DNA of 64,000 nt from Promethearchaeati archaeon SRVP18_Atabeyarchaeia-1 (GTDB lineage: Archaea > Asgardarchaeota > Atabeyarchaeia > Atabeyarchaeales > Atabeyarchaeaceae): positions 288,001 through 352,000 of the forward strand of contig CP147779.1 of NCBI GenBank assembly GCA_037308085.1, given 5' to 3'. The notes below the pieces were generated by a model. That model searched no databases, had not been told where the DNA came from, and saw only the letters and a list, made by a program, of their open reading frames with translations. The position numbers and the translations under genes were made by a program. Positions 16,790-32,707 of this stretch are shown here, piece after piece (position 1 is the stretch's first letter; each line of letters opens with the position of its first letter).

Positions 16790-17218
16790 TCATTCACTTT
16801 CGACAAGAAGTTCGATCGAGACCTTGTTTTCTGGGTTTCTCAGTCTCTCAATGATTCTTCGATCTAGGTCTTTTGCTGCTTTGTTTGCTCTCACCATTAG
16901 CGTTCTTTCACATGTGAAGCTGCTTTTTCGACATACCATGTCTTCTCTGCTTGTTAGACGTAGCTGAGGGTCTCCTTGCCCCGTGACCTCTTCCTTCAGA
17001 CCGCATACTTCTAGAACGAGCAGAACTTTTGATGATTCTCTTCTGAGAAGGTTCTTGAAGAGGTTACTAAAATCGCTTGGCGATTTGCTTGCGTTGGCGG
17101 CAATTATACAGTCACCTTTGAGAGTGACCTCTTCCGCCTTGGTTATCTCCAGGGTTGTTCCGTGAGTTCCCCTGATGCAACTATGACCGTATGCAGTTAG
17201 GCACTCGATGGCTTTCAC
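16790..17218 (-). CDS. DUF371 family protein
   Basis: GH..I...H.TTLEITK, GDCII and RKS.F...RT motifs. Confidence 0.85.
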   Translation of the reverse strand: MKAIECLTAYGHSCIRGTHGTTLEITKAEEVTLKGDCIIAANASKSPSDFSNLFKNLLRRESSKVLLVLEVCGLKEEVTGQGDPQLRLTSREDMVCRKSSFTCERTLMVRANKAAKDLDRRIIERLRNPENKVSIELLVESE

Positions 17219-17404: not shown

Positions 17405-18119
17405 GTGGAGTTGAAAGACTTAGAGAAGAACAAGCAGAGGCTTCTTGAGCACTACGTTGACGAAGGCATTGCTAATAGTAGCACTGTGATCAAGGCATTC
17501 ATGAAGGTTCCGAGAGAGGAATTTGTGCCGGAGGACGTCAGGGATTCTGCTTATGATGATCGCCCCCTTCCGATAGCTTTTGGGCAAACAATAAGTGCGC
17601 CACACTACTTGGGAACCCCAAGTTGGGCGAGACATGGTCATCATAATGTGTGAACAGTTGAAGCTTGAGGAAGGGCACCGCGTGCTCGAAGTGGGAACTG
17701 GTTCGGGTTACCATGCTGCGATCTGCGCCGAAATCGTTGCACCTGCCTCATCTCGGAAGCCGGGGCATGTCTACACAATCGAGAGAATAAGGTCCTTAGC
17801 CGACTTTGCTAGGGAGAACTTGAGGAGAACAGGTTACGAGGACCGCGTGACTGTAATTGTCGGAGACGGAACAGTAGGTTACAGGGAGGCCACGCCGTAC
17901 GACAGAATTCTTGTGACGGCGTCAGCGCCCAAAATCCCCGATCCTTTGGTCGAGCAGTTAGGCGACGCGGGAATAATGACGATCCCTGTTGGCGGTCGGT
18001 ACGGCTGGCAGGATTTGGTCATTATAAAGAAAATGAAGGACGGCAAGATAAAGACCGAGAACTTCGGTGGAGTAGCGTTTGTGCCCCTAATTGGAAGACA
18101 TGGCTGGGAAAACGAGTAG
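17405..18119 (+). CDS. pcm: Protein-L-isoaspartate O-methyltransferase; spliced, join(17405..17603,17632..18119), 228 aa
   Basis: [14 protein letters not shown]|[11 protein letters not shown] and FVPL motifs; the two ORF halves are out of frame until a 28-nt BHB intron is removed. Confidence 0.9.
17604..17631 (+). other. BHB-type mRNA intron in pcm (28 nt)
   Basis: Outer helix GTG/CAT, central helix CGCC/GGCG, bulges ACA and AGA, inner stem ACTTGGG/CCCAAGT. Confidence 0.85.
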
Positions 18120-31282: not shown

Positions 31283-32707
31283 CTAGAAGTAATCAGATAG
31301 GTTTCTTTGAACGGGTTGTTTCTCCTTTTCCTCCGTCGCTGGCTTCCTTTGCCGTTGCTGCTCTTCACTTTCTTGGCTGATCTGGATGGAGCGATCAGCC
31401 CGAGTATTCTCGTCTTCAAATATTATGGGCTGCCCATATACTCCGTCGTATCCTGGCCTGAACCTTATCTTCTTCTCCCTCACCCTCAAGATCGCTTCCG
31501 ACACCCTATCTCCTGAAACTGATGCAATCTCACTTCTAGGCGCCTCAAGCAGAATGTAGAGTTCATTTGGGAACCTCTTGAGAAGTCTCCCATATTCCTC
31601 CCACACAGCCTTGGAGAAAACCTCCTTGAGTCCTAGCGCGATGGATATTATCTCTTGAAGAGGGATCAGACTCACATATGGGATAGCTCCTTGGGGCTTG
31701 AAGCCATCCGCCCTATCAGCAAGTTCCTCGACGCGATCCAACACACCGACCGTCAACTTCCTTCCACAGACTGGACATATCTCATGGCACCTGCTGGATT
31801 CCTTTGGGCCAAGGACGACTTTGCAAATCCTGTGCCCAGTGTAATGATACTTCCCGTAACTTGGATCAACTTCAATTGTCTCGATGAATCTTGCTGGATC
31901 TTTCTTTCGGATTGTGTCGACTATCTCCTTGTAGGTCACATTTCGCAGTTCGAGGACATTTGCCTCTCTGCCTACACGGTAAGGCCAAGGACTGTGAGAA
32001 TCGCTGTTGCTCATCAGGGTGAATCGGTCCAAACTTGAAAGACGCCAATTCATCGCAGGGTCTGAACTCAAGCCAGTTTCAAGCGCGTGTATGTTCCGCG
32101 TCTGATCCTGAAAACAATCCTCAATCCTATCAAAACCCGACCTAGACCCAAACAAACTGAAAAACGGCGTCCACACGTGTGCTGGGATTACCTCATTCCA
32201 CTGGTCAATCTCTGTTATGATCGCCGTGAGTTCTGCCGCAGTTACCTTAAGCTTTGGTCTTCCATCCGAATTGAGGTCACCGTATTTGGAGATTCTATCG
32301 TTTATCTGCTTCGCAACTTCAAGGTTCGGGCATAGAACTAGAAGGTGAATTCTCTTTGCCTTTTCCTCCCAAGTGAACTCTGTGTCAACTTCTCCAGTTA
32401 CCATGAAAAGGGTCGATCCCGATACGCCCCGACCGGTCTTTAAGGTGTACAGCCCGCTCTTGTCAACCTCGGAAAGGGACGATTCACATTCCGTGAGCCA
32501 TCTCGGCGAGGTAAAGTGGAGACTCACCTACCTTAGCTTGCCGAAGCATTACATAATGCAGGTCGAGTTGTCTCCTGTGCCGAGAAGACTCAAACCCTTG
32601 ACCCTAGCCTGTCTTTCAAGATTGACCAGATTCATGTCTTGGCTGGTAGCCGCCGAATACTTGCTATGAATATGGAGATCTGCGACGACCCTCAGATGGC
32701 TGTCCAC
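31283..32707 (-). CDS. endoQ: Endonuclease Q / PHP-domain Zn-finger nuclease; spliced, join(32707..32570,32515..31283), about 456 aa
   Basis: Exon 1 has DLHIHSKYS...LGTGD; exon 2 has FTSPRW, PAHVWTP, ETGLSSD, NSDSHS, GREAN, GKYH and CPVC. Confidence 0.88.
32516..32569 (-). other. BHB-type mRNA intron in endoQ (54 nt, contains in-frame TAA)
   Basis: Central helix GGAG/CTCC, bulges ACA and ACT, inner stems ACTC/GAGT and ACCTGC/GTAGGT. Confidence 0.85.

What the first reader, a model, noticed from the sequence alone, without database searches (positions are those of the whole stretch)
17595..17635. BHB mRNA intron in pcm restores the frame at the conserved GQTISAPH-M motif
Seen: pcm is split into two out-of-frame ORFs, and the junction reads GTG-CGCC-AC^A-CTACTTGGG-AAC-CCCAAGTTG-GGCG-AG^A-CAT. 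This is a canonical bulge-helix-bulge: a 4-bp CGCC/GGCG helix, two 3-nt bulges and flanking helices. Cutting after the second base of each bulge, the rule for archaeal tRNA splicing endonuclease EndA, removes 28 nt (17604-17631) and yields ...ISAPHMVIIMCE..., the normal Pcm sequence of 228 aa. Established: BHB introns in archaeal mRNA are known mainly from crenarchaeal cbf5. Inference: this is an EndA/RtcB-spliced protein-gene intron in an Asgard archaeon, which standard annotation would call a frameshifted pseudogene.
Basis: partly seen in the sequence, partly recalled or inferred. Interest (0 to 1): 0.92.

Follow-up and report, generated by a model that had tools for sequence, protein, structure and literature searches.

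The report
tRNA-type intron splitting Asgard pcm gene
The only protein-repair methyltransferase gene (pcm) of this soil Asgard archaeon (Atabeyarchaeia) is broken by a 28-base insert shaped like a tRNA intron, kept at the same codon with compensating base changes in many other archaea, so the mRNA is very probably cut and re-joined by the tRNA-splicing enzymes, something published for the coding region of only one other archaeal gene (cbf5).

Summary
Removing 17604-17631 (28 nt) gives an uninterrupted 228-aa Pcm reading ...GQTISAPH|MVIIMCE.

The insert and its 5' exon form a 4-bp helix CGCC/GGCG, the bulges ACA and AGA, and an inner hairpin of 8 pairs in 9. The outer helix is weak.

The same site carries a 21-48-nt insert in 21 distinct Asgard-side sequences and in a Bathyarchaeia-labelled class. 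The hairpin sequences differ but stay paired: 95% of cells pair, against 29-46% when the partners are slid, and 10 of 13 pairs show compensatory changes. One cutting rule restores APHM in all 21.

Both exons are under strong purifying selection (dN/dS 0.03-0.17). The genome encodes EndA alpha and beta subunits and RtcB.

No RNA evidence was found: no spliced-junction contig and no full-length protein from close relatives.

"Canonical" is slightly overstated, and the intron is not confined to Asgard archaea.

This scan has noted the pcm intron at least 14 times on other DNA. The papers I could search confirm coding-region BHB splicing only for cbf5.

Verdict: a new member of a known kind. Confidence 0.88; interest about 0.68.

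The parts
17405..17603 (+). pcm exon 1. It runs from a putative GTG start to the first base of the His codon and encodes ...[13 protein letters not shown] plus the C of CAC.
   Evidence: PCMT profile 2-62; 1jg1_A residues 13-77. The start codon is inferred: GTG 17405 or TTG 17411.
17604..17631 (+). 28-nt BHB (tRNA-type) intron, phase 1, unique in the genome.
   Evidence: One search found no other copy in the genome.
17632..18119 (+). pcm exon 2. It supplies the AC of the His codon, then MVIIMCE...GWENE and the TAG stop.
   Evidence: PCMT profile 61-208; 1jg1_A residues 79-228.
17598..17601 (+). Central helix H, 5' strand CGCC. It lies in exon 1, within the Ala-Pro codons.
   Evidence: Pairs with 17626-17629. 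Paired 21/21 in relatives, with G-C to A-U double changes in 4.
17602..17604 (+). 5' bulge ACA. The predicted cut is after 17603.
   Evidence: The rule of cutting between the 2nd and 3rd bulge residues is from PMC2738675. It restores APHM in 21/21 sequences.
17605..17625 (+). Inner hairpin h': CTACTTGGG, loop AAC, CCCAAGTTG. It has 8 of 9 pairs and one U.U mismatch.
   Evidence: fold; all nine pairs covary among relatives.
17626..17629 (+). Central helix H, 3' strand GGCG (intronic).
17630..17632 (+). 3' bulge AGA. The predicted cut is after 17631.
17595..17597 (+). Outer helix h, 5' strand GTG. It pairs with CAT at 17633-17635 (G.U, U-A, G-C).
   Evidence: Only the closing G-C/G-U pair is kept in all relatives (21/21, then 14/21 and 8/21).
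17633..17635 (+). Outer helix h, 3' strand CAT (exon 2).

Best explanation
The 28 nt at 17604-17631 are an archaeal bulge-helix-bulge (tRNA-type) intron in the pcm pre-mRNA. The exon sequence GCG-CCA-CA supplies one strand of the 4-bp helix and the 5' bulge. The intron supplies the complementary GGCG, the 3' bulge and a stabilising hairpin. The heterotetrameric (alpha-beta)2 splicing endonuclease cuts after the second base of each bulge. RtcB then joins the exons and circularises the intron. Only the spliced mRNA encodes the 228-aa protein-L-isoaspartate O-methyltransferase. Shown here: the structure, its covariation, same-site conservation, frame and motif restoration, selection on both exons, and the presence of the enzymes. 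Inferred: the cleavage and ligation themselves, and which enzymes perform them.
For: (1) Anatomy and in-silico splice. The two ORFs are contiguous halves of one single-domain enzyme. (2) pcm is the only PCMT gene in a closed 2.81-Mb genome. (3) A same-site insert of 25-32 nt occurs in 21 distinct sequences. They come from Atabeyarchaeia, DXJG01 ('Baldr' label), and lineages labelled Jordarchaeales and Freyarchaeota, among others. In a 300-genome phylum sample, every pcm-bearing genome of five families has it: f1 2/2, f7 5/5, f8 1/1, f14 3/3, f18 6/6. It was not seen in the intronless loci read directly. Among the listed matches, short frames occur in those five families plus the second pcm copy of one f3 genome (G015), which also carries the intron. 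(4) Insert lengths fall in all three phases (25-32 nt; two 30-nt in-frame inserts carry stop codons). One cutting rule gives ...TISAPHM... in 21/21 sequences, and all conceptually spliced genes align end to end without stops. (5) Covariation: 226/231 cells pair in an alignment anchored on the splice sites. RNAalifold independently returns H, a 3-nt bulge and h', with 10 of 13 pairs compensatory. 95% of cells pair, against 29-46% with slid partners, and 0/500 shuffles reach the observed score. A synonymous GCG-to-GCA change in the exon is matched by GGCG-to-GGTG in the intron. (6) dN/dS is 0.03-0.17 in both exons of intron-bearing pairs. (7) EndA alpha (209 aa) and beta (241 aa) and an intact RtcB are encoded. 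Asgard (alpha-beta)2 enzymes are reported to carry the L1 loop that confers broad specificity (PMC5829648). (8) Context: 92-95% of tRNA genes in this genome carry introns (PMC11291895). At least four other protein genes of this genome have frame- or motif-restoring BHB inserts.
Against: There is no RNA-level evidence. Two scans of the metagenome collection for spliced junctions found nothing. Every protein at least 73% identical in the 5.8-billion-protein set is a 145-200-aa product of the unspliced gene. The outer helix is minimal, so the motif is relaxed. The single-sequence fold is only moderately better than shuffles (z = -2.3). Exon 2 begins with the conserved ATG, so a separately translated C-terminal fragment cannot be excluded from sequence alone.
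Confidence: 0.88

Rival explanations
1. Split enzyme: the N-terminal (about 66-82 aa) and C-terminal (161 aa, starting at the conserved Met) parts are translated separately and assemble. The conserved hairpin would serve translation coupling or mRNA stability, not splicing.
For: Exon 2 starts with ATG at 17634, and gene callers call both ORFs. Both parts are under purifying selection.
Against: This does not explain the invariant geometry of a 4-bp helix with a 3-nt bulge on each strand, with compensatory changes. It does not explain why one cutting rule regenerates the split His codon in 21/21 sequences. The N fragment would carry a variable junk tail. The break lies inside the TISAPH(M) motif in the middle of a single domain.
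Confidence: 0.05
2. Decaying or inactive gene: the insert is a disabling insertion and pcm is a pseudogene.
For: Read literally, the frame is broken. A same-genus draft genome gave no pcm match, so pcm may be dispensable.
Against: The insert is retained at one codon in at least 21 distinct sequences across several families, with no other lesions. dN/dS is 0.03-0.17 in both exons while synonymous sites are near saturation. The structure is maintained by compensatory changes.
Confidence: 0.03
3. Translational recoding: ribosomes bypass (hop over) or frameshift across the hairpin.
For: A stable hairpin lies just after the take-off region. The repeated ACA/CAC-type bases at the two boundaries could resemble matched take-off and landing sites.
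Against: Insert lengths of 21-48 nt fall in all phases, some in frame with stops. There is no conserved matched codon pair. The conserved features are those of a BHB, not of known bypass or frameshift signals.
Confidence: 0.02
4. Assembly or sequencing artefact.
For: None was found.
Against: The genome was manually curated and validated with long reads (PMC11291895). The insert recurs in dozens of independent assemblies.
Confidence: 0.005

Closest known systems
BHB intron of the cbf5 pre-mRNA in Crenarchaeota (Watanabe 2002; Yoshinari 2006; Yokobori 2009, PMC2738675)
   Same: It is a short intron (cbf5: 16-44 nt) inside a coding sequence at a conserved catalytic motif. It has a relaxed BHB cut between the 2nd and 3rd bulge residues, occurs in hosts with a heteromeric EndA, shows a patchy gain/loss distribution, and is mis-called by gene finders.
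   Different: The gene (pcm) and the host lineages (Asgard, and a Bathyarchaeia-labelled class) differ. cbf5 of this genome is uninterrupted over TruB_N. cbf5 splicing has cDNA and in-vitro proof, whereas pcm has comparative evidence only.
Non-canonical tRNA introns of Atabeyarchaeia and Freyarchaeia (PMC11291895; bioRxiv 10.64898/2026.10.13.758758)
   Same: The organism, motif class and presumed enzymes are the same. As far as submitter labels allow the match, the pcm intron occurs in the lineages those papers report as rich in tRNA introns: Atabeyarchaeia, Jordiarchaeia (Frey/Jord) and DXJG01.
   Different: The substrate is an mRNA, so splicing must come before or compete with translation. 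Neither paper mentions introns in protein genes.
BHB intron in the 5' UTR of Haloferax volcanii HVO_1309 (PMC7714728)
   Same: It is an EndA-cleaved BHB within an mRNA, and the excised intron is circular.
   Different: It lies in the UTR (46 nt) rather than the coding region, so no reading frame depends on it.
IRE1/RtcB splicing of HAC1/XBP1 mRNA in eukaryotes (own knowledge; mentioned in PMC13149111)
   Same: It is spliceosome-independent endonuclease-plus-ligase splicing of a short frame-changing mRNA intron defined by RNA structure.
   Different: The endonuclease (IRE1) and the stem-loop motifs differ. It is regulated by stress and is not homologous at the RNA level.

Membership tests
Archaeal BHB (tRNA-type) intron, EndA/RtcB-spliced | Two 3-nt bulges on opposite strands, separated by a 4-bp helix | tested here: met
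   CGCC/GGCG with bulges ACA and AGA. The helix is paired 21/21 with a compensatory G-C to A-U change.
Archaeal BHB (tRNA-type) intron, EndA/RtcB-spliced | Inner flanking helix h' | tested here: met
   8 of 9 pairs here. All nine alignment pairs covary among relatives.
Archaeal BHB (tRNA-type) intron, EndA/RtcB-spliced | Outer flanking helix h (strict hBHBh') | tested here: inconclusive
   There are 3 pairs here, including one G.U. In relatives only the closing pair is constant (21/21; then 14/21 and 8/21). The motif is therefore the relaxed HBh' type, which (alpha-beta)2 enzymes accept (PMC5829648).
Archaeal BHB (tRNA-type) intron, EndA/RtcB-spliced | Cutting after the 2nd nucleotide of each bulge yields a functional product | tested here: met
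   It restores the frame and the APHM motif in 21/21 sequences and in the 8 sequences of the Bathyarchaeia-labelled class that passed the motif filter. It gives full-length alignments without stops.
Archaeal BHB (tRNA-type) intron, EndA/RtcB-spliced | The host encodes a splicing endonuclease of suitable specificity and an RNA ligase | tested here: met
   EndA alpha-like (209 aa) and beta-like (241 aa) genes and an RtcB gene (490-aa frame) are present.
Archaeal BHB (tRNA-type) intron, EndA/RtcB-spliced | Excision observed in RNA (spliced junction, circular intron) | not testable with these tools
   No RNA reads were available. Searches for spliced-junction contigs and spliced proteins found none.
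Protein-L-isoaspartate O-methyltransferase (PF01135) | A full-length match to the family after splicing | tested here: met
   The exons cover profile positions 2-62 and 61-208 of 210, and residues 13-77 and 79-228 of 1jg1_A.
cbf5 pre-mRNA intron family | Located at the catalytic Asp codon of cbf5 | tested here: not met
   The gene is different. cbf5 of this genome is in one frame over TruB_N. The resemblance is one of mechanism, not of family membership.

The most novel reading that the evidence does not exclude
The pcm intron is one of a genome-wide population (tens) of EndA-spliced introns in protein-coding mRNAs of intron-rich Asgard lineages (Atabeyarchaeia, Jordiarchaeia and relatives). 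These introns would be produced by the same gain process that interrupted 92-95% of their tRNA genes. Obligatory, nucleus-free mRNA splicing would then be a routine step of gene expression in close prokaryotic relatives of eukaryotes. The same pcm site has been either kept since before the split of these lineages or hit repeatedly.
Probability: 0.4. Interest if true: 0.85.

Novelty: new member of a known kind. Interest (0 to 1): 0.68.

Why it matters
- Papers up to 2020-2025 state that cbf5 is the only archaeal coding sequence known to need BHB splicing (PMC2738675, PMC7714728).
- A second gene family with the same requirement, conserved over several Asgard families and a Bathyarchaeia-labelled class, shows that tRNA-type mRNA splicing is neither a crenarchaeal oddity nor limited to one gene.
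- Annotation pipelines truncate these genes. Here pcm is called as a 145-190-aa fragment, which distorts metabolic reconstructions and ortholog counts for Asgard genomes.
- In organisms where transcription and translation are thought to be coupled, a coding-region intron raises the question of how unspliced mRNA is kept from the ribosome. That question can be tested with the existing metatranscriptomes of this very population.
- The co-occurrence with extreme tRNA-intron loads offers a handle on how BHB introns are gained.

Tried and rejected
1. **Homology-free genome census of frame-restoring BHB sites**. There were 240,939 permissive motifs. The counts of sites that "restore" open frames equalled the phase-shift controls at every threshold (for example 136 against 125 and 125). 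The method cannot separate real introns from open-frame noise, so no genome-wide number is claimed.

2. **Spliced-junction search in the metagenome collection.** I used degenerate patterns for the Atabeyarchaeia-type junction and the Frey/Jord-type junction. Both gave 0 hits.

3. **Search for full-length (spliced) proteins** among 5.8 billion sequences. None is more than 72% identical to an intron-bearing lineage. One 200-aa cluster member (P0130) proved to be an out-of-frame upstream extension through the intron.

4. **Rfam**. The only hit was a chance miRNA hairpin, E = 0.2 and far below the gathering score.

5. **Repeat or mobile-element reading**. The intron has no second copy in the genome.

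6. **Single origin versus several.** The gene tree needs at least 2-3 changes, but the AU test does not reject one clade (p = 0.18). This is left open.

7. **Frameshift, bypass, pseudogene and artefact readings.** These were rejected for the reasons given under the rival explanations.

Full report
**1. What is in the sequence**

Two ORFs overlap here in different frames: 17405..17653 (82 aa) and 17595..18119 (174 aa). The first matches Pfam PCMT (PF01135) positions 2-62. The part of the second that starts at the ATG at 17634 matches positions 61-208 of 210.

Against solved structures, the two pieces align to residues 13-77 and 79-228 of one chain, P. furiosus PIMT 1jg1_A. They are therefore two halves of a single-domain enzyme, broken inside the conserved TISAPH-M motif.

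Removing 17604-17631 (28 nt) gives a 687-nt frame, 228 aa plus stop, reading ...[18 protein letters not shown].... The intron is in phase 1 of the His codon (C|AC).

The boundary is degenerate over three positions at the sequence level. The bulge-helix-bulge (BHB) rule selects 17603|17604 and 17631|17632.

**2. The structure**

The layout is h (GUG/CAU), H (CGCC/GGCG), 5' bulge ACA, h' (8 of 9 pairs, one U.U) with loop AAC, and 3' bulge AGA. The two bulges lie on opposite strands, 4 bp apart, in the same order as in pre-tRNA.

The cut between the second and third bulge residues is the rule documented for cbf5 (PMC2738675).

The single-sequence MFE fold (-17.4 kcal/mol, z = -2.3) keeps H and the hairpin but shifts the register at the 5' bulge. 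In most relatives the MFE fold itself is H, a 3-nt bulge and h'.

The outer helix is weak. "Canonical" is therefore a slight overstatement; the motif is close to the relaxed HBh' class.

Only 138 sites of equal formal quality occur in 5.6 Mb counted over both strands. The intron has no second copy in the genome. Rfam has nothing here.

**3. The organism and its enzymes**

The window lies at 288001-352000 of a closed 2,808,651-bp genome. The nearest record is Ca. Atabeyarchaeum deiterrae Atabeyarchaeia-2. The size matches the complete 2.81-Mbp "Atabeyarchaeia-1" genome.

That paper reports introns in 92-95% of tRNA genes, often at non-canonical positions, and does not mention introns in protein genes. 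Its KEGG table lists one pcm ORF.

pcm is the only PCMT gene in the genome.

The genome encodes:
- a catalytic-type EndA (209 aa);
- a second EndA-like protein (241 aa) that aligns to the N-terminal half of fused enzymes and weakly to beta-subunit models;
- an intact RtcB.

This fits the (alpha-beta)2 architecture with the L1 loop reported for Asgard archaea, the type that accepts relaxed motifs (PMC5829648).

**4. Comparative test**

Among 40 relatives, eight showed the same break at residue 67.

A 300-genome sample of the phylum, plus fetched regions, showed a BHB insert at the same codon in every pcm-bearing genome of five families: f1 2/2, f7 5/5, f8 1/1, f14 3/3 and f18 6/6. It is also in a second pcm copy of one f3 genome.

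By record titles and protein names these are Atabeyarchaeia, DXJG01 ('Baldr' label), and lineages labelled Jordarchaeales and Freyarchaeota. The 23 other loci that I read directly are intronless. So are 18 of the 20 loci. Among the 150 listed matches, short frames occur only in the five families and in the second pcm copy of the f3 genome G015.

In the protein collection, every cluster at least 73% identical to an intron-bearing lineage is a 145-200-aa product of the unspliced gene.

The insert also occurs in a MAG labelled Bathyarchaeota (L048). In that MAG's class, about 25 of 84 pcm matches have short frames. Of the 11 short-frame regions fetched, 8 showed a 21-48-nt BHB at the same codon. 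The other three showed comparable inserts that my motif filter did not score. One long-frame region fetched as a control (G316) was intronless.

**5. Covariation and the cutting rule**

The 21 distinct sequences have inserts of 25-32 nt in all three phases. Two in-frame 30-nt inserts carry stop codons. The hairpin sequences are unrelated between clades.

One rule, cutting after the second base of each bulge, gives ...TISAPHM... in 21/21. All conceptually spliced genes align to the 228-aa product end to end without stops.

Three measures of pairing agree:
- In an alignment anchored only on the splice sites, 226/231 cells of H and h' pair, against 90-118 when the partner is slid.
- RNAalifold on a MAFFT alignment independently returns H, a 3-nt bulge and h', with 10 of 13 pairs showing double changes.
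- The pair count gives 95% paired against 29-46% slid, and 0/500 shuffles reach the observed covariation score.

A synonymous GCG-to-GCA change in the exon is matched by GGCG-to-GGTG in the intron in four sequences.

**6. Selection**

dN/dS between intron-bearing pairs is 0.03-0.17 in exon 1 and in exon 2, with synonymous sites near saturation. Both reading frames are therefore translated. This rules out a pseudogene.

With variable-phase inserts, it also leaves removal at the RNA level as the only common mechanism.

**7. History**

In a Pcm tree, intron-bearing genes form three clades:
- Atabeyarchaeia-type;
- Frey plus Jord;
- f8 plus DXJG01 plus the Bathyarchaeia-labelled pair.

The deep nodes are unresolved, and at least 2-3 changes are needed. 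An AU test does not reject a single clade (p = 0.18).

Ancient origin with losses, repeated same-site gain, and transfer of the gene all remain open.

The f3 second copy groups 100/99 with the Bathyarchaeia-labelled sequence. This points either to transfer or to bin contamination.

**8. Context in the same genome**

The window holds a second case. A 54-nt in-frame insert with stops lies at 32516-32569 (minus strand), in a TIGR00375/EndoQ-type gene after GTGD, with a BHB layout.

My scan also recovered BHB inserts that restore conserved motifs in three other genes:
- ahcY (488226-488259);
- gatE (2219068-2219108);
- a RuBisCO-like gene (2712459-2712486).

These followed leads from earlier notes of this scan.

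cbf5 of this genome is uninterrupted over TruB_N.

A homology-free census could not give a total, because counts equalled the phase-shift controls.

**9. What is missing**

There is no RNA evidence. Two scans for spliced junctions found nothing, and no spliced-form protein exists in the collection.

Cleavage by EndA and ligation by RtcB are inferred from the motif and the gene content.

**10. Known or new**

Papers available to me state that cbf5 is the only coding-region BHB intron reported, plus one 5'-UTR case in Haloferax (PMC2738675; PMC7714728). Searches on Asgard, BHB and mRNA returned nothing on protein genes. The 2026 preprint on Asgard tRNA introns does not treat them.

Within this scan, the pcm intron has been noted at least 14 times in other genomes (Asgard, Bathyarchaeia, DPANN). 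Other Asgard mRNA introns have been noted repeatedly.

I class it as a new member of a known kind. The mechanism is the cbf5 and tRNA one. The gene, the breadth and the Asgard setting are new to print as far as I can tell.

**Verdict**

- Confidence in RNA-level BHB splicing is 0.88.
- Interest is 0.68.

Noticed in passing
window 32516-32569 (- strand): A 54-nt in-frame insert with stop codons interrupts a TIGR00375/EndoQ-type gene right after ...LLGTGD. The layout is GGAG-ACA-[hairpin]-CTCC-ACT. Exon 1 matches profile positions 2-39 and exon 2 matches 74-373. The fold z-score is -3.3.
   Followed up: partly
G000:C1:488226-488259 (+), 2219068-2219108 (+), 2712459-2712486 (-): Three more BHB-shaped inserts in protein genes of the same genome. 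Removing them restores conserved motifs: ahcY ...AEGHPS|EVMDMSF, gatE ...CLLEA|DEEPPH, and a RuBisCO-like gene ...GGGIHAHPDG.
   Followed up: partly
G000:C1:698178-698207 (+): A strict BHB candidate (CTAG-GGA-...-CTAG-AAC, 30 nt) lies at the place where another reader noted an intron in the SRP RNA gene. I did not examine it further.
   Followed up: no
L070/L075 (G015:C126) and L029 (G015:C90): One Asgard MAG (f3) carries two pcm genes, one intronless and one with a 30-nt BHB intron. The intron-bearing copy groups 100/99 with a Bathyarchaeota-labelled sequence (L048). This points to horizontal transfer or bin contamination.
   Followed up: partly
G301 class (loci L084-L095): About 25 of 84 pcm matches in the class of the Bathyarchaeota-labelled MAG have short frames. 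Eight of the 11 short-frame regions fetched show a 21-48-nt BHB insert at the same codon, and three more have comparable inserts. The twelfth region fetched was an intronless control (G316). The intron is therefore not Asgard-specific.
   Followed up: partly
G000:C1:383841-384134 (L082/L083): cbf5 (TruB_N) of this genome lies in one 291-aa open frame. The classical crenarchaeal cbf5 intron is not present here.
   Followed up: partly
G001 (same genus, 280 contigs, 94% complete): I found no pcm match better than E = 4e-5. The gene is either unassembled or lost in the closest relative.
   Followed up: no
window 16790-17218 (- strand) and loci L072-L074: A DUF371 (PF04027) gene lies divergently upstream of pcm. 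This arrangement is conserved in the metagenomic relatives.
   Followed up: no
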